A DNA stretch of 64,000 nucleotides, from assembly GCA_035306365.1 (NCBI GenBank), contig DATGOE010000206.1, positions 5,461-69,460 of the forward strand, written 5' to 3'. Positions 24,332 through 35,337 of this stretch are shown here, in pieces (positions within the stretch are counted from its first letter, which is position 1; every line of letters begins with the position of its first letter). Under the pieces are notes generated by a model. The model was not told where the DNA came from and did no database searches. It worked only from the letters and a program-made list of their open reading frames with translations. The translations under genes and the position numbers were made by a program. This DNA is from Natronosporangium sp. GTDB taxonomy: Bacteria > Actinomycetota > Actinomycetes > Mycobacteriales > Micromonosporaceae.

Positions 24332-24814
24332 ATGGGTGAGGGTGCCGACGACCTCGTTGAGTCCGGACGCGACGTGCTGCTGGCCTACCTCAACAAGGTG
24401 CGGCGTGCGCTGGTGCGCACCTGCCAGGGCCTGACGCCCGACCAGCTGCGGCGGCCCGGCGTGCCGTCGGGGACGAACCTGCTCGGTCTCGTCCACCACC
24501 TCACCGGGGTCGAGAGGCACTGGTTCCAGCGGGTCTTCCTCGGTCGGGACGTGGACGTGGACAAGTCGATGACGGTCCCGACCGACCTGAGCCCGGACCG
24601 GGTGGTCGCCGCGTACCAGGCGGCGTGCCAGACCAGCGACGAGATCGTGCGCTCCTGTCCGGACCTGTCCACGCTGGCGGCCGTCCCCAACCCCGGCGAG
24701 GACGCACGCGACTCCCTGCGGTCGATCGTGGTGCACATGATCGAGGAGACCGCCCGGCACGCCGGTCACGCCGACATCCTGCGCGAGCGGATCGACGGCG
24801 CCACGGGCCTGTGA
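24332..24814 (+). CDS. DinB/DUF664-family protein (putative metal/thiol-dependent)
   Basis: PSGTNLLGLVHHLTGVERHWF and HMIEETARHAGHADILRERIDG signature. Confidence 0.9.
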   Translation: MGEGADDLVESGRDVLLAYLNKVRRALVRTCQGLTPDQLRRPGVPSGTNLLGLVHHLTGVERHWFQRVFLGRDVDVDKSMTVPTDLSPDRVVAAYQAACQTSDEIVRSCPDLSTLAAVPNPGEDARDSLRSIVVHMIEETARHAGHADILRERIDGATGL

Positions 24815-24887
24815 GGACGCCCCGCTGAGCTCGGGTCGCATCCGGGCTCCGGCGGCATCCGCCGGCCTGTGGGGTGGACCGCACCCG

Positions 24888-24922
24888 GGAATCGGTGCCG
24901 GAATCCGTGCTCTGCACGGATG
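24888..24922. promoter_or_regulatory. Palindromic box 1 upstream of DsrE-like gene
   Basis: ATCCGTGC-TCT-GCACGGAT (24903-24921, perfect 8-3-8) with an extra half-site GGAATCGGTGC 12 bp upstream. Confidence 0.7.
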
Positions 24923-25030
24923 TGTCGCGGCCCGGCCGCGGGAAGGCTGCTCCCAAGGGCCGGTGCCGGCATCCGGATAGCCAACCGGCGCCGGCCCGTC
25001 GTCAGCGACAGATTCCTCAGGGGAGCAGCC

Positions 25031-25393
25031 ATGCACAAGGCAGTCGTCAGCCTCAACACCGGCCTGGAGGACCCGGAGACCGTCACGGTCGCGTTCCTGG
25101 TCGCGGTCGGGGCGGCGGAGCAGGGGCGGCCGACGTTGATGTTTCTCACCAAGGAGGCGGTCCGCCTGGCCGTGGACGGCTTCGCGCAGGCCGTCGCGTG
25201 CGACGGCTGCCCGCCACTGGCCGACCTGGTGGCGCGGTACGCGAAGGCCGGCGGGGCGTATCTGGTCTGCCCGATCTGTGTCAAGGCGCGCCACGTCGAC
25301 CCGGCCGGGTTCATGGACAACGCCGAGACCGGCGGCACCGTGCAGATGTGGGAGTGGATCGGCGACGGCCCCGCCGTGACGTTCAGCTACTGA
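25031..25393 (+). CDS. DsrE/DsrF-like family protein with two CxxC motifs
   Basis: SD GGGAG; VTVAFLVA, MFLTKEAVRLA, CDGC, LVCPIC, GG. Confidence 0.85.
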   Translation: MHKAVVSLNTGLEDPETVTVAFLVAVGAAEQGRPTLMFLTKEAVRLAVDGFAQAVACDGCPPLADLVARYAKAGGAYLVCPICVKARHVDPAGFMDNAETGGTVQMWEWIGDGPAVTFSY

Positions 25394-25437
25394 CGACCCG
25401 GCGCACCTCGACCGCGCACGAGGTGCATCCCGGGTCG
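25394..25437 (+). terminator. Long hairpin directly after the DsrE-like gene
   Basis: CGACCCGG-C-GCACCTCG / loop / CGAGGTGC-ATC-CCGGGTCG (two 8-bp stems); no U tract. Confidence 0.55.
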
Positions 25438-25568
25438 CACCATGGGTCGCACTCCGGGGGGCACCCACGGTGGTCGGGTTCCCCGCTCCGGGACCTCCGG
25501 CGGCGCGTCGTCCGGATGTGGGGAACTCGATCATCGCCGATGATCCGGCGACGCGTACCCTGTGCCCC

Positions 25569-26576
25569 GTGAAGGCGCCGAAGATCGAGCTGCACGTCCA
25601 CCTGGAGGGCACCATCCGGCCGGCGACGCTGCTGGCGATCGCCCGCCGCAACGGCGTGGCGCTGCCGGCCGACACCGTCGAGGGCCTGGCGAAGCTGTAC
25701 GAGTTCACCGACTTCGCCCACTTCATCGACGTGTGGAAGCTGACCACCGGCTGCCTGCGCACCGCCGAGGACTTCCGGCAGGTGGTGGTGGAGTACGCCG
25801 CCGAGGCGGCCGGCTTCGGCGCGGTCTACCTGGAGGGGATCTTCTCGGGGCAGGCGGGCGTGCCCTGGCCGGAGCTGTTCACCGGCTACACCGAGGGCGC
25901 GGTCGAGGCGTACGAGCGGTACGGGGTGACCGTGCGGCTGACCCCGGACCTGTACCGCACCCAGGACGTGGAGTGGGCCGAGGAGTGTGCCCGCTGGGCG
26001 GTGCGGTACGCCGACCGCGGCGTGGTCGGGCTGGGGCTGGGCGGCCTGGAGGCGGCCGCACCGGCGGCGCGGTACGCCCGGGCGTTCGCGATCGCCCGCG
26101 ACGGCGGGCTGGCGATCGTGCCACACGCCGGCGAGGCGGCCGGGCCGGAGTCGGTACGGGAGGTGCTGGCGTACGAGCCGGCGCGGATCCGCCACGGGAT
26201 CCGCGCGGTGGAGGACCCGGCGGTCCTGGCCGAGATCGTCGACCGGGGGATCGTCCTGGACGTGTGCCCCACCTCCAACGTGCGCACCCGCGTGGTCGAC
26301 TCCCTGCCCGCCCACCCGCTGCCCGCGCTGCGCGCGGCCGGGGTGCGCTGCACGGTCAACACCGACGACCCGGCGATGTTCGGCACCGACCTGCGGCGGG
26401 AGTACGAGGTCGCCGCTTCGCTGGGGGTCAGCGCCGCCGACGCGTACGTGGCCGGGGTCGCGGGCGCGCTGTGTGACGAGGACACCCGGGCGCGCCTGGT
26501 TGAGATCGGACGCCAGCACTATCCCGAGGTGCCTGACCGCGACTGGGACGCAAACTTCCGTGCCTTCCACGGATGA
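25569..26576 (+). CDS. add: Adenosine/adenine deaminase family protein
   Basis: PKIELHVHLEG, PHAGE, RIRHG, CPTSN, NTDDPAMF. Confidence 0.92.
   Translation: MKAPKIELHVHLEGTIRPATLLAIARRNGVALPADTVEGLAKLYEFTDFAHFIDVWKLTTGCLRTAEDFRQVVVEYAAEAAGFGAVYLEGIFSGQAGVPWPELFTGYTEGAVEAYERYGVTVRLTPDLYRTQDVEWAEECARWAVRYADRGVVGLGLGGLEAAAPAARYARAFAIARDGGLAIVPHAGEAAGPESVREVLAYEPARIRHGIRAVEDPAVLAEIVDRGIVLDVCPTSNVRTRVVDSLPAHPLPALRAAGVRCTVNTDDPAMFGTDLRREYEVAASLGVSAADAYVAGVAGALCDEDTRARLVEIGRQHYPEVPDRDWDANFRAFHG
26556..26575. promoter_or_regulatory. Palindromic box 2 upstream of AhpD-like gene
   Basis: TTCCGTG-CCTTC-CACGGATG, same core and spacing as box 1; lies in the last codons of add. Confidence 0.65.
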
Positions 26577-26639
26577 CCGCCGCCGGGCGCGCGTGTGAGC
26601 GTACGGGCGTCAGCGGTCAACCGAGGCACCGGAGGGAAC

Positions 26640-27248
26640 ATGACCTATATCCAGACCGTGCCGCCGTACGCGGCGGCGGGGCAGGTGGCCGAGCTGTACG
26701 CCGCGGACGTGGCCGAACGCGGGTACGTCGCCAACCTCACCCGGGCGTTCTCGCTGCGCCCCGTCGTGCTGGTGGCGTGGCGACAGCTGCTCGCCGCCGT
26801 GGTCGCCCCCATTGACCGCCGGCGGTTCGAGCTGGTGACGCTCGCCGCCGCGAGCGCGCTCCGCTCGACCTACTGCGCGATGGCGCACGCACGGGTGCTG
26901 CGGGACGGGTTCCACGACGCGGACACGGTCCGCCGGATCGTCACCAGTCCGGCCACCGCGGGGCTGGACCCGACCGACGTGGCGATCATGGAGTTCGCCG
27001 AACGGGTGGCCAGGGACGCCACCTCGATCGGTCCGGACGACGTGGACCGGCTGCGCACGCACGGGCTGTCCGATGCGGAGATCCTCGACGTCATCCTGGC
27101 CGCGGCCGCCCGCTGCTTCTTCTCCACCGTGCTGGACGCGGCCGGGGCGCAGGCCGATGCCCAGCTCAGTGACGACCTGGAGCCGGCGCTGCGGGCCGCG
27201 GTCACGGTCGGCCGCCCGCCCGCCGACCGGGTCGCGGCCGACGGCTGA
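26640..27248 (+). CDS. AhpD-like / carboxymuconolactone decarboxylase family (peroxidase-related) protein
   Basis: SD GGAGG; RRFELVTLAAASALRSTYCAMAH (SxxC instead of CxxC), LRTHGLSDAEILDV. Confidence 0.85.
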   Translation: MTYIQTVPPYAAAGQVAELYAADVAERGYVANLTRAFSLRPVVLVAWRQLLAAVVAPIDRRRFELVTLAAASALRSTYCAMAHARVLRDGFHDADTVRRIVTSPATAGLDPTDVAIMEFAERVARDATSIGPDDVDRLRTHGLSDAEILDVILAAAARCFFSTVLDAAGAQADAQLSDDLEPALRAAVTVGRPPADRVAADG

Positions 27249-27297
27249 GGCGGCGTCGCGCCGGCACCTCCACCCGTGCCGCGGCCGGCGGTCACGT

Positions 27298-27325
27298 CGG
27301 GTGACCGGGGCCGGCCCGTCACCCG
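27298..27325. terminator. Hairpin between convergent AhpD-like and LuxR-STAND genes
   Basis: CGGGTGAC...GTCACCCG 8-bp stem. Confidence 0.45.
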
Positions 27326-30102
27326 CCCGCTGCGACCAGGGTGTGCGGGTCGGCCACCCGACCGGCCCGCCACGCGGCGGCGAACGACGCGGCGCCGAGC
27401 CGACCGCGCAGCCCTGCCAGCGCGGCGCACACCGTGCCCCGGTCGACCGCCGGCCGCGGCACGCCCACGGCGCGGCGCAGCGTCACCGCGGCGGCGTGGC
27501 GGCGCACCGCCAGCGCCGTGTCGGCGCCCGCCACGTCCGCGGCGAGCCCGTCCAGGCACGCGGCCGCCCCCACCCGGCTACCGAGCCCGGTGAACGCCGC
27601 CCATGCCTGCCGGTCGAGGTGGGACGCCCGGGCGGTGTCGCCTGCCAGCCGGGCGGTGCGCGCCAGCGCGTGGTGTGACCACGCGACCCCCTTGCGGTGC
27701 CCCATCCGCTCGAAGCGCGCCAGGGCCGCGGCGGCGAGCGCCGCCGCGGCCCCGGCGTCGCCGCGCGCGGTCGCGGCCAGCGCCGTGCCCAGCTCGGCGG
27801 TCGCCAGCCCGAGCTGCTCACCGAGGTCGGCGAAGGTCTCCCGGGCCCGGGCGTACGCGGCCGTCGCCGCCTCGACGTCGCCCCGCAGGTACGCCACCTC
27901 GCCGCGCCCGCAGTGCGCGTACGCCACGCGCTGCAGGTCGCCCACCTCCAGCGCCCGCCGCAGGCTGCGCTCCATCAGCTCGCCCGCCTCCCCGTACCGG
28001 CCCCGCACCGCGGCCAGCGACCCCAGGCGGGCGAGCTCAATGGCCAGCGACCGGCCGTCGGCCAGCTGCTCGTGCAGCGCCACGCTGCGGGCGTACCGTT
28101 CGGTCGCCGCCGGGTAGTCCTCCCGTTCGGCCTCGAGCTGACCCAGGTTGCCCAGGGCCATCGCCCCGCCCTCGGTGTGCCGCTCCCGCCGGTACAGCCG
28201 CAGGCACTCCTGCCACAGCGCGGCCGCCCGGTCGTAGTCGCCCTGCTCCCTGGCGACCAGCGCGAGGTTGTTCAGGGAGTTGGCGGCCAGCAGCGGGTCG
28301 CTCAGCCGGTCCGACAGGTCCCGGCACTCCTGCCACAGCCGGGTGGCGGCGTCGAACTCGCCCCGCCGCCACGACACCATGCCGAGTCCGGTGAGGGCGA
28401 GCAGGGTCTGCCGCCGGTCGCCGGCCGACCGGGAGATGTCCAGGCACTCCCGCAGCGCGCCGGCCGCCACCGGGTAGTCGCCCTCGCGTACAGCCAGCAC
28501 GCCGACGGCACGCAACGCCGCGGCGCGGGTGGCGTCCGGCACGTGCGGTGCGGCCGCGAGCAGCCGCTCCAGCCACCGGCGGCCCTCGGTGAAGAAACCG
28601 CGCACCTGCCAGAACCACCACACCGCCAGGGCCAGGCGCAGGCCCAGGTCGGCGTCGCCGCGCTCCAGCAACCACGCCAGCGCCGCGCGGATGTGGTCGT
28701 GTTCTGCGTCCAGGCGCTCCAGCCATGCCGCCTGTTCCGGTCCCCGCAGGTGGGCCGCGGCCTGTTCGGCCAGCCCGAGGTAGTAGTCGGCGTGGCGGCG
28801 ACGCACCGGCTCGGCACCGCTTGCCGCGAGCCGGGCGGCGGCGTACTCGCGCAGGCTCTCCAGCAGCCGGTACCGCACCGAGGCACCGTCCTGGGTCGTG
28901 GCGACCAGCGACTTGTCCACCAGCGCCGGCAGCAGCCGCAGCAGCACCGAGGCGTCCGCGTCGCCGACCCGGCACACGGCCGCCACGGCCGGGAAGTCGA
29001 CGTCGCTGGGGAACACCCCCAGCTGGTCGAACAGCTCGCGCTCCTCGTCGTCGAGCAGGGCGTAGCTCCAGTCGATCGCCGCCCGCAGGGTGCGGTGCCG
29101 CGGCGGGGCGGTGCGCGCGCCGGCGGCGAGCAGATCGAACCGCCGGTCGAGGTGGGCGACCAGGTCCGCGGGCGGGAAGCTGCGCACGCGTGCGGCGGCC
29201 AGCTCGATCGCCAGCGGCAGCCCGTCGAGCCGGCGGCACAGGGTGGCCACGTCCGCGGCGTTGGCGTCGGTCAGGGTGAAGCCGGGGGACGCCGCGGCCG
29301 CCCGCTCGACGAACAGGCGCACCGCGTCGTAGGTGCCGGCGGTGGCGGCGCGGGGGGACGCCCTGGCCGGAGGGACCGGCAGCGGCCCGACCGGGAAGCT
29401 GACCTCCCCGGGCACGCCGAGCGGCTCGCGGCTGGTGGCGAGGATCCTCAGCGGACCGCCGGCACCGAGCAGGTCGGCCACCAGGGTGGCGACGTCGGCG
29501 ACCACGTGCTCGCAGTTGTCCACCACCAGCAGGCACCGCGCCCGGCCGGCGGCCTCGCGCAGGCTGTCGCGCAGCGCCCGACCCGGTTGCGGGACGACCC
29601 CGAGCGCCCGTGCCAGCGTGCCGCCGACCAGGGCGGCGTCGACCGGGGCGAGGTCGGCCTGCCGCGCGCCGTCGGGGTAGCGGTCGGCGGTGGCCACCGC
29701 CACGTGCAGGGCGAGCCGGGTCTTGCCGGCGCCGGCCGGACCGGTCAGGGTCACCAGCCGGTGGTCGTCGAGCAGCGCGGTGACCTGCCCGGACTCCCGC
29801 TGCCGGCCGACGAAGCCGGTCAGCGGCGCGGGCAGGGCGGGCGCGCCGGCGGCGGCGCGGGCGATCTCGGTACCGAGGGCGATGAGCGCGGTCCGGTCGG
29901 GTACGCCGAGCTTGCGCAGCAGTGCCGCGATGTGGCTCTCGACCGTCCGCACCGACACGTGGAGGCGCTGGGCGATCTCGCGGTTGCGCAGCCGCTCCGT
30001 CACGGCGGCGAGCACCTCCGCCTCCCGGCGGGTGACCCCCGCACGGGACAGGTGCGGGGGTACGCCGGAGCCGGAGCCAGGGCCGGAGCCGGGTCCACCC
30101 AT
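27319..30102 (-). CDS. Large regulator: N-terminal LuxR HTH + STAND (NB-ARC-like) ATPase + TPR repeats
   Basis: TRREAEVL...NREIAQRLHVSVRTVESH; Walker A GPAGAGKT; VVDNCEH; LDGLPLAIELAAA; C-terminal TPR-like repeats (ANSLNNLALVA, ALGNLG). Confidence 0.92.
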   Translation of the reverse strand: MGGPGSGPGSGSGVPPHLSRAGVTRREAEVLAAVTERLRNREIAQRLHVSVRTVESHIAALLRKLGVPDRTALIALGTEIARAAAGAPALPAPLTGFVGRQRESGQVTALLDDHRLVTLTGPAGAGKTRLALHVAVATADRYPDGARQADLAPVDAALVGGTLARALGVVPQPGRALRDSLREAAGRARCLLVVDNCEHVVADVATLVADLLGAGGPLRILATSREPLGVPGEVSFPVGPLPVPPARASPRAATAGTYDAVRLFVERAAAASPGFTLTDANAADVATLCRRLDGLPLAIELAAARVRSFPPADLVAHLDRRFDLLAAGARTAPPRHRTLRAAIDWSYALLDDEERELFDQLGVFPSDVDFPAVAAVCRVGDADASVLLRLLPALVDKSLVATTQDGASVRYRLLESLREYAAARLAASGAEPVRRRHADYYLGLAEQAAAHLRGPEQAAWLERLDAEHDHIRAALAWLLERGDADLGLRLALAVWWFWQVRGFFTEGRRWLERLLAAAPHVPDATRAAALRAVGVLAVREGDYPVAAGALRECLDISRSAGDRRQTLLALTGLGMVSWRRGEFDAATRLWQECRDLSDRLSDPLLAANSLNNLALVAREQGDYDRAAALWQECLRLYRRERHTEGGAMALGNLGQLEAEREDYPAATERYARSVALHEQLADGRSLAIELARLGSLAAVRGRYGEAGELMERSLRRALEVGDLQRVAYAHCGRGEVAYLRGDVEAATAAYARARETFADLGEQLGLATAELGTALAATARGDAGAAAALAAAALARFERMGHRKGVAWSHHALARTARLAGDTARASHLDRQAWAAFTGLGSRVGAAACLDGLAADVAGADTALAVRRHAAAVTLRRAVGVPRPAVDRGTVCAALAGLRGRLGAASFAAAWRAGRVADPHTLVAAGG

Positions 30103-30213
30103 GCCGGAATCCTGCCACCGCCTGCCCACCCGCCGCACCGCGCGTCCAGACGAGAACAGAAGGGGCAGTAGTGCCGCCTTCCCACACGGCGCCGCGCTCG
30201 CAACCCGCTCGCC

Positions 30214-30489
30214 CTAGGCGAGCCGTCGTTGGTAGTTGAGCCCTCGCTGGTACGGGACGTAACCCAACCTGTCGTTGGTCGCCACCATGTGGGCGTTGGA
30301 CTCGGCGTTGCTCGTGACGATGTAGCGCAGGTTGGGGAACGACCGCCGGATCCGCCGGTGCGCCTCGATCTTGACGATCGTCCCCAGCCGGTGCCCGCGG
30401 TGGTCGGGGTGTGCCACCGTCGTGCGGATGTACCCGAGGAGCTGTCCCGCTTCGACGTCGCCGTGGATGTTCACGGCGGTCGCTTCCAT
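30214..30489 (-). pseudogene. Truncated GNAT acetyltransferase (C-terminal part only)
   Basis: VAHPDHRGHRLG acetyl-CoA motif A and TSNAESNAHMVATNDRLGY; only 91 aa. Confidence 0.6.
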
Positions 30490-30659
30490 GACCCGACTGT
30501 AGTGACGGCGTGCACCCGGTGGCGTCGACGCGGATCCCGACACCCGTCGACAGCGCCGCCGTTCGATCGTCGGCTGTCCGCGAGGCCTTTCGTGGCGGCC
30601 ACCGACCTCATATCATTTAATCTTTACTCGTCGATGGATGACCCGCTTGGGGAGCCGAG

Positions 30660-32064: not shown

Positions 32065-33354
32065 GTGACCCCGGAGGAGATCCTCGCCCTGGACCGGGCA
32101 CACGTGTGGCACCCGTACGCCCCGATGCCCGCCACCTCCGACCCGTACGTGGTGGCCTCCGCCGAGGGGGTGCGGCTGCGCCTGGCCGACGGCCGCGAGC
32201 TCATCGACGGCATGTCCAGCTGGTGGGCGGCGATCCACGGCTACCGGCACCCGGTGCTGGACGCGGCCGTGCGCGACCAGCTGACCCGGATGAGCCACGT
32301 CATGTTCGGCGGCCTGACCCACGAGCCGGCGGTACGGCTGGCCCGCACCCTGGTCGAGCTCACCCCGCCGGGCCTCGAGCACGTCTTCCTGGCCGACTCC
32401 GGGTCGGTCAGCGTCGAGGTCGCGATCAAGATGTGCCTGCAGTACCAGCGGGCGCTCGGGCGGCCGCGCCGGCGGCGGCTGCTCACCTGGCGCGGCGGCT
32501 ACCACGGCGACACGTTCCACCCCATGAGCGTGTGCGACCCCGAGGGGGGCATGCACGCGCTGTGGCGGGGCGTGCTGCCCGAGCAGGTGTTCGTGCCCGA
32601 GCCGCCGGCCGGGTTCGACACCCCGCCCGATCCCGCCTACGTCGACGTGCTGGCCGACGCGGTCGCCGCCCACGCCGACGAGCTCGCCGCGGTGATCGTG
32701 GAGCCGGTCGTGCAGGGGGCCGGGGGGATGCGGTTCCACCACCCGGGCTACCTGACGGCGCTGCGCGAGATCACCCGGGCCCACGACGTGCTGCTCATCT
32801 TCGACGAGATCGCCACCGGGTTCGGCCGCACCGGACGGCTGTTCGCCGCCGACCACGCCGGCGTCACACCGGACGTCATGTGCGTGGGCAAGGCGCTCAC
32901 CGGCGGCTACCTGACCGCGGCGGCGGTGCTGTGCACGCCGGAGGTGGCCGACGGGATCCGCTCCGGAGACGTGCCGGTGCTCGCGCACGGGCCGACGTTC
33001 ATGGGCAACCCGCTGGCGTGCGCGGTCGCCAGCGCGTCGATCGGCCTGCTGACCGGGCGGGACTGGCGGGCGGACGTCGCCCGGATCGAGGCCGGGCTGC
33101 GGGCCGGCCTGGCGCCCCTGGCCGGCCGCCCGGGCGTGGCCGACGTCCGGGTGCTCGGCGCGATCGGGGTGGTGCAGCTGGACCGGCCGGTCGACGTCCC
33201 GGCCGCCACCGCGGCGGCGGTCGACCACGGCGTGTGGCTGCGCCCGTTCCGGGACCTGGTCTACACGATGCCGCCGTACCTGGTCACCGACGCGGAGGTC
33301 GCCCGGATCACCGCCGCCGTCGCCGCCGCGGTCGCCCGGGTGACCGGCCACTAG
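32065..33354 (+). CDS. bioA: Adenosylmethionine-8-amino-7-oxononanoate aminotransferase
   Basis: [63 protein letters not shown]. Confidence 0.97.
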
Positions 33355-33478
33355 ACCGGTCACCCGGGCCGGTCGTCACACCGGGGTTGCGGGCAGCCCG
33401 GTCAGCCGTGGGCGCGCCGCGCGCGAGCGGGGTGCGCCGTGCACCTATGATCGAGGCTCTGGCAATCGGGACGAGAAG

Positions 33479-34438
33479 GTGGACGTGGCCGCACAGCAGT
33501 CGATCGTGATCAACGGTGATCTTGGCAGCGGTAAGACCACCGTGTCGGTGATGCTGGCGCAACGCCTGGGCGTGCGGCGCATCAGCGTCGGCGACATCTA
33601 CCGCCGGATGGCCGAGGAGCGCGGGATGACCGCGCTGCAGCTCAACCTGCACGCCGAGCTCGACGACGAGGTCGACGGGTATGTCGACCGACTGCAGCGG
33701 GAGATCGCCCGCTCCGGAGAGCAGCTGGTGGTGGACAGCAGGCTGGCGTGGTTCTTCTTCACCGACGCCCTGAAGGTCCACCTCATGGTCGACCCGACGG
33801 TCGGTGCCGGCCGGGTGCTCGCCCGGCCCGACAAGGCGGAGACCTACTCGTCGCTCGCCGAGGCCAAGCAGCGGCTGCGGGAGCGCAGCGAGAGCGAGCG
33901 GGTGCGCTTCCTGACGCGGTACGGCGCGGACAAGACCCGGCTGCGCAACTACGACCTGGTGTGCGACAGCACCCGGGCGCAGCCCGAGGAGATCGTCGAG
34001 CACGTGATCGCGGCGTTCGAGGGCCGGCTGGCGCCGGAGGTGGTACGGGAGAACCCGCCGCTGATCCTGGCGGACCCGGCGCGGATCTACCCGACCCAGG
34101 AGATCGGGGTGCTGCGCGACCTCGACGGTGCGCCGGACACCACCCCCCCGGCCGACGAGCCGGCGCCGCCGCTGCGGCTGGGACACGCTGACGGGCACCT
34201 GTTCGTCGTGGACGGTCACCGTCGACTGAGCCAGGCCCTGCGGTCCGGCAGCCGGCTCGTCGCGGCGAGCCTGGCGGCCGAGGGTGACGAGGTGGTGGTC
34301 GGAGGGCTGTCGGCCCGCAGCTACTTCGAGGCCGAGGTCGGCCGGAGCATGATCTACGACTGGTGCGCCGCGCACGGCACCGACCTGCCGCTGCCACCGC
34401 ACCTGGCCCGCGCGGGCGCCGGCACCGTGGCCGAGTAG
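33479..34438 (+). CDS. Archaeal-type (type 2) cytidylate-kinase-like protein fused to a C-terminal ParB/Sulfiredoxin-like domain
   Basis: GDLGSGKTT, VVDSRLAWFF, RxxSERxRFxxxYG, YDLVCDST; tail has IYPTQ and FVVDGHRRL. Confidence 0.75.
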   Translation: MDVAAQQSIVINGDLGSGKTTVSVMLAQRLGVRRISVGDIYRRMAEERGMTALQLNLHAELDDEVDGYVDRLQREIARSGEQLVVDSRLAWFFFTDALKVHLMVDPTVGAGRVLARPDKAETYSSLAEAKQRLRERSESERVRFLTRYGADKTRLRNYDLVCDSTRAQPEEIVEHVIAAFEGRLAPEVVRENPPLILADPARIYPTQEIGVLRDLDGAPDTTPPADEPAPPLRLGHADGHLFVVDGHRRLSQALRSGSRLVAASLAAEGDEVVVGGLSARSYFEAEVGRSMIYDWCAAHGTDLPLPPHLARAGAGTVAE

Positions 34439-34458: not shown

Positions 34459-35337
34459 ATGCAGACGTTCGGGGAGCGGTTGCGGGCCGCCGTGGCGGCG
34501 CGGGGCGCGCTGTGCGTCGGGATCGACCCGCACGCCTCACTGCTGCGCGCGTGGGGCCTGCCCGACGACCCCCACGGCCTGGCCGAGTTCACCCGCACCG
34601 TGGTGTCGGCACTGGCCGACCGGGTCGCGGTGCTCAAGCCGCAGATGGCATTCTTCGAGCGGTTCGGCTCGCGGGGGATCGCGGTCCTCGAGGAGGCGGT
34701 CGCCCGGGCGCGCGCGGCCGGCGCGCTGGTGCTGCTCGACGGGAAGCGCGGTGACGTCCCGTCCACCGTGGCCGGGTACGCCGACGCGTACCTGAGCCCG
34801 TCCAGCCCGTTGCGGGTCGACGCGGTCACCGCCCACCCCTACCTGGGGGTCCCCTCACTCGTGCCACTGTTCGACGCCGCCCGCACCCACGGCGGCGGCG
34901 TCTTCGTGGTGTGCCGCACCTCCAACCCGGAGGCGGCGGCGGTTCAGCAGGCCCGCACCGCCGAGGGGCCGTCCGTGGCCCAGCACGTCGCCGACGAGGT
35001 CGCCCGGCTCAACCGAGAGTCCACACCGGCCGAGCCCGGCCCCGGTGGGGCGGGCGGTGCCCTCGGCAGCTTCGGCGTGGTTGTCGGCGCCACCGTCGAG
35101 CCCGGGTTGGACCTGTCCCGGCTCGGCGGCCCGGTCCTCGCCCCGGGCCTGGGCGCGCAGGGAGCGACCGCCGCCGACCTGCGGCGGGTCTTCGGCGACC
35201 AGCTGGACGCGGTGCTGCCCTCGTACTCCCGGGAGGTGCTGCGCGCCGGCCCGGACCCCGCCGCGCTCCGCGCCGCGGCGGACCGCGCGCTGGCCGCCTG
35301 CGAGGCGGTGCGCGGCTCCACGGCGACCGCGCGGTGA
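34459..35337 (+). CDS. pyrF: Orotidine-5'-phosphate decarboxylase
   Basis: LCVGIDPH, KPQMAFFE, LDGKRGD, RTSNPE, GVVVGAT, LAPGLGAQG. Confidence 0.97.
   Translation: MQTFGERLRAAVAARGALCVGIDPHASLLRAWGLPDDPHGLAEFTRTVVSALADRVAVLKPQMAFFERFGSRGIAVLEEAVARARAAGALVLLDGKRGDVPSTVAGYADAYLSPSSPLRVDAVTAHPYLGVPSLVPLFDAARTHGGGVFVVCRTSNPEAAAVQQARTAEGPSVAQHVADEVARLNRESTPAEPGPGGAGGALGSFGVVVGATVEPGLDLSRLGGPVLAPGLGAQGATAADLRRVFGDQLDAVLPSYSREVLRAGPDPAALRAAADRALAACEAVRGSTATAR

What the first reader, a model, noticed from the sequence alone, without database searches (positions are those of the whole stretch)
33479..34438. Cytidylate-kinase-like enzyme fused to a ParB/Sulfiredoxin-like (CTP-binding fold) domain in the pyr region
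Seen: the N-terminal ~190 aa look like the archaeal/type-2 CMP kinase (GDLGSGKTT, DSRLAW, SE..RF...YG, YDLV.DST). The C-terminal ~120 aa carry IYPTQ and PLRL...LFVVDGHRRL (GHRR motif within 34211-34225). The gene sits directly before pyrF. Established: GxxR is the nucleotide-binding signature of the ParB/Srx superfamily (ParB CTPases, sulfiredoxin, SerK), and actinobacteria normally encode a different canonical Cmk elsewhere. Inference: a second NMP kinase with a built-in CTP-sensing or second phosphotransfer domain, for example end-product feedback on pyrimidine pools. I do not know of a described fusion of this kind.
Basis: partly seen in the sequence, partly recalled or inferred. Interest (0 to 1): 0.7.

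Follow-up and report, generated by a model that had tools for sequence, protein, structure and literature searches.

The report
CMP-kinase-like enzyme with ParB/Srx tail
This is a real gene for a nucleotide-kinase-like enzyme carrying an unannotated ParB/sulfiredoxin-fold domain, part of a widespread but undescribed protein family; its position next to pyrF is a local accident, not evidence of a role in pyrimidine control.

Summary
ORF 33479-34438 (+) encodes a two-domain protein; the likely true start is 33485 (317 aa). Residues 9-177 are a catalytically intact Cytidylate_kin2 / archaeal-type (d)CMP-kinase-like domain. Residues ~190-310 match no Pfam model. They fold confidently (pLDDT 92) into a ParB/Srx-fold domain with a DGHRR box, and every structural match is a ParB/Srx protein.

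The fusion is a real family. It occurs in about a quarter of sampled Micromonosporaceae-family genomes and is scattered over at least eight other phyla. The C-domain was only seen attached to this kinase.

The pyrimidine-feedback reading is not supported:
- Three congeners have bioA directly abutting pyrF and lack the gene.
- In most of the family the orthologue lies between priA and def.
- The upstream neighbour is bioA.
- cmk and ndk are present elsewhere in this genome.

No neighbour is conserved across phyla. A minority of distant members sit in nucleotide-modification or defence-like operons (Sa_NUDIX, NTP_transf_6, radical SAM). The seven kinase catalytic residues are invariant in every relative checked. 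The ParB-type arginine is lost in about a third of fusions.

Best reading: an accessory stand-alone NMP kinase whose ParB/Srx module acts in cis. No paper describing the fusion was found. First-stage readers of this scan noted the same fusion in at least 13 other genomes.

The parts
33485..34438 (+). Gene for the two-domain kinase-ParB/Srx protein. The likely start is GTG 33485 (317 aa); the longest ORF starts at 33479 (319 aa, P0001, whose numbering is used throughout this report).
   Evidence: (P0002 is 317 aa and 100% identical).
33503..34009 (+). N-terminal NMP-kinase domain (residues 9-177). It carries P-loop G13-K19 and the catalytic residues R42, D86, R88, R112, R136 and R143.
   Evidence: TIGR02173 102.7 bits and PF13189 59 bits. 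Foldseek best matches are 3hdt and 3fdi, followed by shikimate and CMP kinases. The seven residues are invariant in 78 relatives.
34040..34408 (+). C-terminal ParB/Srx-fold domain (about residues 188-310). Its conserved elements are P200, P205-T206 (the IYPTQ box), D245-G246-H247-R248-R249 and W295.
   Evidence: No Pfam hit. AF2 pLDDT is 92. All Foldseek and VIA matches are ParB/Srx proteins. The family profile's best PDB match is sulfiredoxin.
34211..34225 (+). DGHRR box. It is the counterpart of GCHR in sulfiredoxin and GERR in ParB.
   Evidence: HMM alignments; conservation tables.
33446..33479 (+). Putative own expression signals: a -10-like TATGAT (33446-33451) and RBS GAGAAGG (33473-33479). 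Both are conserved in the 92%-identical relative G008.
   Evidence: Sequence reading. The sigma-70 consensus scan found nothing, so this is inference only.
33328..33376 (+). Strong hairpin straddling the bioA stop codon. It may be a factor-independent terminator without a T-tract, separating bioA from the inserted gene.
   Evidence: -46.7 kcal/mol, z = -2.7.
34459..35337 (+). pyrF (type 2 OMP decarboxylase), 20 nt downstream of the kinase gene. It is a context gene, not part of the feature.
32065..33354 (+). bioA (adenosylmethionine-8-amino-7-oxononanoate transaminase), the upstream context gene.
   Evidence: NF004624 596.7 bits, TIGR00508 559.6 bits.

Best explanation
The gene encodes a stand-alone, accessory nucleotide-monophosphate kinase of the Cytidylate_kin2 / archaeal-type (d)CMP-kinase lineage. 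It carries a fused ParB/Srx-fold domain that works in cis with the kinase.

Shown:
- The two-domain architecture.
- Intact kinase catalytic residues.
- The ParB/Srx fold, with a G-H-x-R box at the position of the phosphate-binding and catalytic box of sulfiredoxin and ParB.
- No HTH and no ParB-type dimerisation domain.
- The C-domain occurs only attached to this kinase.
- The gene is one vertically inherited but dispensable orthologue group in the Micromonosporaceae-type family. Its position before pyrF is specific to this genus.

Inferred: the kinase phosphorylates (d)CMP or a related NMP with ATP. In this lineage the C-domain binds a nucleotide's phosphates through G246/H247/R249 and modulates or completes the kinase's substrate site, as the ParB/Srx domain does in the free serine kinases SerK and SbnI. 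It does not act as a DNA clamp. The cellular role is supplementary nucleotide phosphorylation (salvage or supply), not control of the de novo pyr operon.
For: Architecture and fold:
- The full-length AF2 model has pLDDT 92.5 and pTM 0.90, which implies a fixed domain arrangement.
- The C-domain modelled alone has pLDDT 92.
- Top Foldseek hits are Atu1540, SerK, 1vk1, sulfiredoxin, SbnI, Noc, ParB, PadC and KorB.
- The VIA-wide search of 48,161 chains gave only 11 with Z>=2, and all are ParB/Srx. Top is Srx at Z 6.7, rmsd 3.1, 84 residues aligned.
- In the profile-versus-PDB search the best hits are Srx and ParB, with GHxR aligned on GCHR and GERR.
- 3 of 57 relatives weakly hit PF02195 and 1 hits PF08857.

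Obligate fusion:
- 98 representative clusters carry the C-domain, mostly about 300 aa with the domain at about 185-310.
- The two short hits that were checked are contig-end fragments.
- All 25 hits of the profile search also carry the kinase.

Kinase is the core function:
- K19, R42, D86, R88, R112, R136 and R143 are invariant in all 78 evaluable loci, fused or not.
- The R249 equivalent is lost in about a third of fusions.
- Kinase-only close relatives exist.

Accessory gene, with an incidental pyr link:
- cmk and ndk are present in the genome.
- G001, G003 and G004 have bioA abutting pyrF and no copy of the gene.
- The order priA-X-def is seen in 9 genomes of other genera.
- The family's copies form one starred clade, 100/99.
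- The domain was found in 48 of 200 family genomes and 1 of 400 other genomes of the phylum.
- No neighbour is shared across phyla.
Against: - No biochemical evidence exists for the substrate. TIGR02173 is passed by only 0.6 bit, and the closest solved structures (3hdt, 3fdi) are uncharacterised.
- The structural Z-scores (5-7) are middling. The fold call rests on the exclusivity of the hits rather than their strength.
- I could not read model coordinates, so I do not know whether the GHRR pocket faces the kinase active site.
- Loss of the arginine in many relatives could mean the domain does not bind nucleotides at all in the family.
- A minority of distant members sit in defence-like or nucleotide-modification operons. 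This could point to a different primary role.
Confidence: 0.55

Rival explanations
1. The ParB/Srx domain senses CTP and feeds back on the CMP kinase, tuning pyrimidine pools together with the adjacent pyr genes.
For: - The GHRR box is intact in this protein and aligns with the CTP-binding GERR box of ParB.
- The gene is 20 nt upstream of pyrF and probably co-transcribed with it.
- Two family members lie within 2-8 kb of pyrR-pyrB (L040 and L041).
Against: - Adjacency to pyrF occurs only in this genus, and congeners lack the gene at the same junction.
- The usual site is priA-def.
- The upstream gene is bioA.
- Outside the family the neighbours are unrelated to pyrimidines: rlmJ/radA, ftsW/murG, rpe.
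- The arginine is lost in about a third of fusions.
- The closest structural relatives are ATP/ADP-using Srx, SerK and SbnI rather than the CTPases.
- The base specificity of the pocket is untested.
Confidence: 0.13
2. Two-step phosphorelay enzyme. The kinase makes NDP and the ParB/Srx domain, itself a phosphotransferase like SerK, SbnI or Srx, makes NTP or phosphorylates a second substrate. The near-invariant H247 sits at the position of the catalytic Cys of Srx and the catalytic Glu of ParB.
For: - The top structural matches include three ATP/ADP-dependent phosphotransferases.
- H247 is conserved in 54 of 57 diverse members and aligns with Cys of GCHR and Glu of GERR.
- Some members sit in operons with radical-SAM enzymes that would need NTP substrates.
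Against: - Ndk is present in this genome and its relatives.
- The His/Arg box is degenerate in roughly a dozen lineages whose kinase is intact.
- SerK and SbnI need a further C-terminal domain that is absent here.
- No precedent is known to me for NDP kinase activity in this fold.
Confidence: 0.1
3. Component or relic of a nucleotide-centred conflict system or modified-nucleotide pathway. In this reading it is a viperin-associated-type kinase supplying or modifying nucleotides for anti-phage defence, retained here as a solitary gene.
For: - All 57 members hit the PADLOC pVip-kinase model; P0001 scores E = 4.8e-22.
- Operon Sa_NUDIX - fusion - NTP_transf_6 - SDR - Tmk-like - pVip-like radical SAM.
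- Sa_NUDIX plus GmrSD and HEPN neighbours.
- A Bacteroides/Parabacteroides operon with radical SAM/SPASM, a dehydrogenase and hpt, present on a plasmid.
- Patchy distribution and presence/absence differences within genera.
Against: - Only about 4 of 57 species-representative loci have such neighbours.
- In the window the neighbours are housekeeping genes, and neither Sa_NUDIX nor NTP_transf_6 was found in this 78%-complete genome.
- The family copies are vertically inherited and fixed in several genera.
- Nothing was found in viral collections.
- The pVip-kinase hit may only reflect the shared kinase family.
Confidence: 0.1
4. The C-domain is a structural appendage (solubility, oligomerisation or localisation) that has lost nucleotide chemistry. 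The protein is simply a second CMP kinase.
For: - The arginine and the whole GHxR box are lost in many lineages, while P200, P205 and W295 stay conserved.
- Kinase-only relatives function without the domain.
Against: - G246-H247 is kept in about 95% of diverse members and R249 in about 80%.
- In the window's clade the box is fully conserved.
Confidence: 0.12

Closest known systems
Archaeal-type (d)CMP kinase (TIGR02173) and the Cytidylate_kin2 family (PF13189; uncharacterised structures 3hdt, 3fdi)
   Same: About 170-aa P-loop NMP-kinase core with GxxGSGK, the G..R..A NMP-site arginine, a D-S/G-R motif and lid arginines.
   Different: It carries an extra ~130-aa ParB/Srx domain. It passes the equivalog cut-off by only 0.6 bit. 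It coexists with a canonical bacterial cmk. The substrate is unverified.
Small ParB/Srx-fold enzymes: sulfiredoxin, free serine kinases SerK and SbnI, Atu1540 (ParBc_2)
   Same: Same fold (Z 5.2-6.7). A phosphate-binding box lies at the same place (GHRR versus GCHR). No DNA-binding domain. In SerK and SbnI the fold works together with a second domain in the same chain.
   Different: - His replaces the catalytic Cys of Srx.
- The SerK/SbnI C-terminal domain is absent.
- No significant sequence similarity (best E = 0.034).
- The partner domain is an NMP kinase, a combination I found nowhere in the literature.
ParB-type CTPase clamps and adaptors (ParB, Noc, KorB, PadC)
   Same: [quoted passage not shown] Weak PF02195 hits occur in 3 of 57 relatives.
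   Different: - No HTH DNA-binding domain and no C-terminal dimerisation domain.
- The box II Glu is replaced by His.
- No recognisable ENLQR-type box III.
- No ParA partner.
Viperin-associated nucleotide kinases (CMPK2; PADLOC pVip-kinase and VakA)
   Same: The kinase domain matches the pVip-kinase model at E = 4.8e-22. Some distant fusions sit beside a pVip-like radical SAM gene.
   Different: No viperin or radical SAM gene lies near the window's gene. The ParB/Srx domain is not part of the described viperin-kinase proteins (10.1101/2023.09.13.557418, read).

Membership tests
Cytidylate_kin2 (PF13189) NMP-kinase family | Pfam model match above the gathering score | tested here: met
   59.1 bits against a cut-off of 28, residues 9-165. 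All 57 diverse relatives also match.
Archaeal-type (d)CMP kinase, TIGR02173 equivalog | Score above the curated equivalog cut-off | tested here: inconclusive
   102.7 bits against a cut-off of 102.1, a margin of 0.6 bit. Sources mostly name the homologues 'AAA family ATPase'.
Archaeal-type (d)CMP kinase, TIGR02173 equivalog | CMP/dCMP phosphorylation activity | not testable with these tools
   Needs an enzyme assay. The catalytic P-loop Lys and five Arg/Asp positions are invariant.
ParB/Srx superfamily (fold level) | Alpha/beta ParB/Srx core fold | tested here: met
   AF2 pLDDT is 92. Foldseek hits are exclusively ParB/Srx, best E = 1.7e-3. In the VIA-wide search all 11 chains with Z>=2 are ParB/Srx, top Z 6.7.
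ParB/Srx superfamily (fold level) | Conserved Arg of the GxxR box in the active-site pocket | tested here: met
   DGHRR at residues 245-249 aligns with GCHR and GERR. The Arg is conserved in 46 of 57 relatives but lost in about a third of species-level fusions.
ParB/Srx superfamily (fold level) | Match to Pfam PF02195 (ParB_N) | tested here: not met
   No Pfam hit for residues 185-319 at E<=10. Only 3 of 57 relatives hit weakly, best E = 1.3e-3.
ParB-type CTPase DNA clamp (ParB/Noc/KorB) | HTH DNA-binding domain and C-terminal dimerisation domain after the N-domain | tested here: not met
   The protein ends about 20 residues after the ParB/Srx core. No HTH family appears among the Pfam hits.
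ParB-type CTPase DNA clamp (ParB/Noc/KorB) | CTP binding and hydrolysis | not testable with these tools
   CTP is not among the ligands offered. This needs ITC or a CTPase assay.
Sulfiredoxin | Catalytic Cys in the GCHR motif | tested here: not met
   His (H247) stands at the Cys position.
Free serine kinase (SerK/SbnI) | ParB/Srx N-domain plus the SerK-type C-terminal domain forming the nucleotide site | tested here: not met
   Structural matches cover only the ParB/Srx part (model 1-108 against chains of 240-254 residues). The partner domain here is an NMP kinase instead.
Prokaryotic viperin system (pVip plus kinase) | Kinase encoded next to, or fused with, a viperin radical SAM gene | tested here: not met
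   The kinase domain hits pVip-kinase at E = 4.8e-22. The neighbours in the window are bioA and pyrF. Only some distant members have a pVip-like neighbour.

The most novel reading that the evidence does not exclude
The ParB/Srx domain is a working NTP-binding or NTP-hydrolysing (possibly CTP-specific) module. Fused to an NMP kinase, it would make a single-chain enzyme that senses or completes its own product pathway. That would be a new functional class of the ParB/Srx superfamily, linking the CTP-switch fold directly to CTP synthesis. In some lineages it would have been recruited to feed radical-SAM (viperin-like) nucleotide-modifying enzymes.
Probability: 0.25. Interest if true: 0.72.

Novelty: new variant of a known kind. 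Interest (0 to 1): 0.48.

Why it matters
ParB/Srx-fold proteins have recently been recognised as CTP-dependent switches and as small-molecule or protein phosphotransferases. A conserved, obligate fusion of this fold to a CMP-kinase-like enzyme is not annotated by Pfam and, as far as I could find, not described in the literature. It occurs in hundreds of species across many phyla. It offers a compact, soluble, single-chain model for asking what nucleotide this fold binds when it is not on DNA, and how it talks to a catalytic partner. For genome annotation, the result shows that 'AAA family ATPase' and 'cytidylate kinase' entries of about 300-330 aa hide a second domain. It also shows that being next to pyrF should not be read as functional linkage.

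Tried and rejected
- **Pfam scan of the C-terminal part alone:** nothing at E<=10.
- **Single-sequence search against PDB sequences:** only kinase hits.
- **Homodimer prediction, to test a ParB-like N-engagement:** score 0.00, no verdict. This is neither support nor evidence against.
- **The search for related loci with the broad alignments A3 and A2:** failed for lack of a conserved stretch. It worked with the narrower A4.
- **Viral collections:** no relative in IMG/VR with the patterns used, and none in the INPHARED phages.
- **Sa_NUDIX and NTP_transf_6 in the window's genome:** not found. The genome is only 78% complete, and the Sa_NUDIX control rang nowhere.
- **Stand-alone C-domain proteins:** the two short hits checked turned out to be contig-end fragments.
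- **Replacement of cmk or ndk by the fusion:** rejected, because both are present.
- **Sigma-70 promoter and intrinsic terminator scan around the gene:** no hits.
- **Literature searches:** five term combinations found no description of the fusion. Maindola et al. 2014 on ParB/Srx architectures was not available.
- **A neighbour conserved across phyla:** none found. Recurrences are only synteny among close relatives.

Full report
**1. What is in the sequence**

The ORF 33479-34438 on the + strand is open. Its third-position GC is 0.94, like the surrounding genes of this 74% GC window. The DGHRR box is encoded at 34211-34225.

The start is more likely GTG 33485 than 33479. A GAGAAGG ribosome-binding site ends at 33479. 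The identical database protein P0002 has 317 residues. Homologues begin MxxxQSIV. Residue numbers below follow the 319-aa translation P0001.

**2. The kinase domain**

- Residues 9-177 match TIGR02173 (archaeal-type (d)CMP kinase) at 102.7 bits against a cut-off of 102.1.
- They also match PF13189 Cytidylate_kin2 at 59 bits.
- The full-length AF2 model has pLDDT 92.5 and pTM 0.90.
- Its best solved matches are the uncharacterised Cytidylate_kin2 proteins 3hdt and 3fdi (TM 0.79-0.84), followed by shikimate and CMP kinases.

K19, R42, D86, R88, R112, R136 and R143 are invariant in 57 diverse relatives. They are also invariant in all 78 evaluable loci drawn from species-representative genomes. 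The kinase is therefore almost certainly active. Its substrate is most likely (d)CMP or another NMP, but this is inferred.

**3. The C-terminal domain**

Residues 185-319 hit no Pfam model. A profile built from 56 family C-domains (A3) finds sulfiredoxin (E = 0.034), ParB (0.26) and Spo0J (0.9) as its best PDB sequence matches. None of these is significant. All three place G-H-x-R on GCHR or GERR.

Modelled alone, the domain reaches pLDDT 92.

- Foldseek against the PDB returns only ParB/Srx proteins: Atu1540 (E = 1.7e-3), SerK, 1vk1, sulfiredoxin, SbnI, Noc, ParB, PadC and KorB.
- The Foldseek-independent search of 48,161 chains gives only 11 with Z>=2. All 11 are ParB/Srx members: Srx Z 6.7, Atu1540 6.4, SerK 5.8, SbnI 5.2, KorB 5.2, PadC 4.8, Osa 3.7 and BrxU 2.3, among others.

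The Z values are middling. The exclusivity of the hits, together with the motif alignment, makes the fold assignment sound. Three of 57 relatives weakly hit PF02195 and one hits PF08857. There is no HTH domain and no ParB-type dimerisation domain.

**4. The family**

An exhaustive HMMER search of 1.84 billion representatives with the C-domain found 98 clusters. Nearly all are about 300 aa with the domain at about 185-310. The two short hits I checked were contig-end fragments of the same fusion.

A profile search among longer proteins returned 25 hits, and all carry the kinase domain. The C-domain is thus seen only in this fusion.

A scan of GTDB species representatives gave 547 tblastn-confirmed relatives. 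Among the best 80, 57 are fusions. They come from Bacteroidota, Bacillota, Desulfobacterota, Verrucomicrobiota, Acidobacteriota, Alpha- and Gammaproteobacteria (many Methylococcales), Bdellovibrionota and Chlorobiota. About 20 are kinase-only proteins of 183-200 aa.

In the fusions P200, P205 and W295 are almost universal. The arginine of the box is replaced in about a third of them (Q, K or L in Methylococcales). The whole box is degenerate in roughly a dozen lineages.

**5. Context in this lineage**

The window reads carB - two hypothetical genes - add - AhpD-like - LuxR/TPR regulator (minus strand) - a small minus-strand ORF - pyrD - bioA - kinase-ParB/Srx - pyrF - mIHF - gmk - rpoZ - coaBC - metK - priA - a small minus-strand ORF - def.

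- The genome is a 2.7 Mb, 78%-complete assembly. It has a canonical cmk (207 bits) and an ndk elsewhere.
- G005 has a single 5,699,854-bp contig, the same length as the Natronosporangium hydrolyticum record behind P0011. Both G005 and G008 share the order bioA - X - pyrF.
- Three other congeners (89-97% complete) have bioA and pyrF 0-50 nt apart and no copy of the gene anywhere.
- In nine genomes of other genera of the family the orthologue lies between priA and def. In six it lies elsewhere.
- A maximum-likelihood tree puts all family copies in one starred clade (100/99). It has a priA-def subclade (99/99) and a bioA-pyrF subclade (84/87).
- The C-domain was found in 48 of 200 sampled genomes of the family (20 of 69 genera, fixed in several). 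It was found in only 1 of 400 other genomes of the phylum.

The gene is therefore an old but dispensable resident of this family. It moved to, or was re-inserted at, the bioA|pyrF junction in this genus.

It brings its own upstream region. A -10-like TATGAT and the RBS are conserved with G008. A strong hairpin (-46.7 kcal/mol, z = -2.7) straddles the bioA stop codon.

**6. Context elsewhere**

No neighbour recurs across phyla. Most settings look like housekeeping:

- rlmJ - X - radA in Methylococcales
- ftsW - X - murG
- rpe ... X ... macB

A minority are nucleotide-centred:

- Sa_NUDIX - X - NTP_transf_6 - SDR - Tmk-like - radical SAM. The NUDIX strongly hits defence effector models and the radical SAM hits pVip models at 63 bits.
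- GmrSD_N - HEPN - Sa_NUDIX - X.
- X - NTP_transf_6.
- A Bacteroides/Parabacteroides cluster of X - radical SAM/SPASM - dehydrogenase - hpt, present on a 111-kb plasmid and on a chromosome at 93-97% identity.

All 57 kinase domains hit the PADLOC viperin-kinase model. No relative was found in viral collections.

**7. Interpretation**

Four facts point to a kinase whose activity is the core function, with a ParB/Srx module that serves it in cis:

- the kinase site is invariant;
- kinase-only relatives exist;
- the C-domain occurs only in this fusion;
- the predicted domain arrangement is rigid.

In the window's clade the G-H-R-R box is intact. H247 occupies the place of the catalytic Cys of sulfiredoxin and the catalytic Glu of ParB, so binding of nucleotide phosphates is plausible. 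The closest structural relatives (Srx, SerK, SbnI, Atu1540) are ATP/ADP-using enzymes rather than DNA clamps.

A link to pyrimidine operon control is not supported by the comparative data. A homodimer prediction gave no verdict.

**8. Novelty**

Sources name these proteins 'AAA family ATPase' or 'cytidylate kinase'. Pfam does not annotate the second domain. Five full-text searches found no description of the fusion. Published surveys of ParB/Srx roles that I could read discuss nucleases, NTPases and regulators, but not this architecture.

First-stage readers of this scan have independently noted the same fusion in at least 13 other genomes, some with a degenerate arginine. That agrees with what I measured.

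I class it as a new variant of known kinds. It is of moderate interest as a model for ParB/Srx nucleotide chemistry, and of low interest as a pyrimidine-regulation story.

Noticed in passing
window 33328-33376: A near-perfect 20-bp hairpin straddles the bioA stop codon (-46.7 kcal/mol, z = -2.7). It has no T-tract. It may be a terminator-like or REP-like element at the upstream edge of the inserted gene.
   Followed up: partly
window 24332-30543: Between carB and pyrD lie genes unrelated to pyrimidine synthesis: two hypothetical genes, adenosine deaminase (TIGR01430, 259 bits), an AhpD-like peroxidase-related protein, a 939-aa LuxR-HTH/TPR regulator on the minus strand, and a 109-aa minus-strand ORF. 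The pyr region of this lineage is a mosaic.
   Followed up: partly
L024:3292-7904 (also L025, L026): Metagenomic operon: Sa_NUDIX - kinase-ParB/Srx - NTP_transf_6 - SDR - thymidylate-kinase-like - radical SAM. The radical SAM hits pVip models at E = 8e-18. This is a candidate modified-nucleotide or viperin-like defence cluster.
   Followed up: partly
L131:5615-10622 and L059:3745-9615: The cluster ATP-binding protein - hypothetical - kinase-ParB/Srx - radical SAM/SPASM - MDR dehydrogenase - hpt is shared at 93-97% protein identity (radical SAM, MDR dehydrogenase, hpt) between a Parabacteroides distasonis 111-kb plasmid and the Bacteroides rodentium chromosome. It looks like a mobile nucleotide-modifying cluster.
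   Followed up: partly
L022:5772-9096 and L023: A fusion gene is inserted between ftsW and murG inside a dcw cell-wall cluster of an uncultured bacterium.
   Followed up: no
L019:5044-7930 and L015:4146-6930: Two unrelated contigs share the neighbourhood of a ~270-aa protein (with a cold-shock-like domain hitting PADLOC CSD_V in L019), a Pentapeptide_3 protein and the kinase-ParB/Srx gene. This may be another recurrent module.
   Followed up: no
L070, L081, L082, L098, L113, L120: Bacteroidota encode kinase-only proteins of 183-198 aa that are 49-58% identical to the kinase half of the fusion P0224. They are either the ancestral form or secondary losses of the ParB/Srx domain.
   Followed up: partly
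L130:6809-7897: Rhodococcus linear or large plasmids (pDK2 and relatives) carry a full-length fusion at 37% identity. Its neighbours are a dsRBD-fold protein, a universal stress protein and a ligD further downstream.
   Followed up: no
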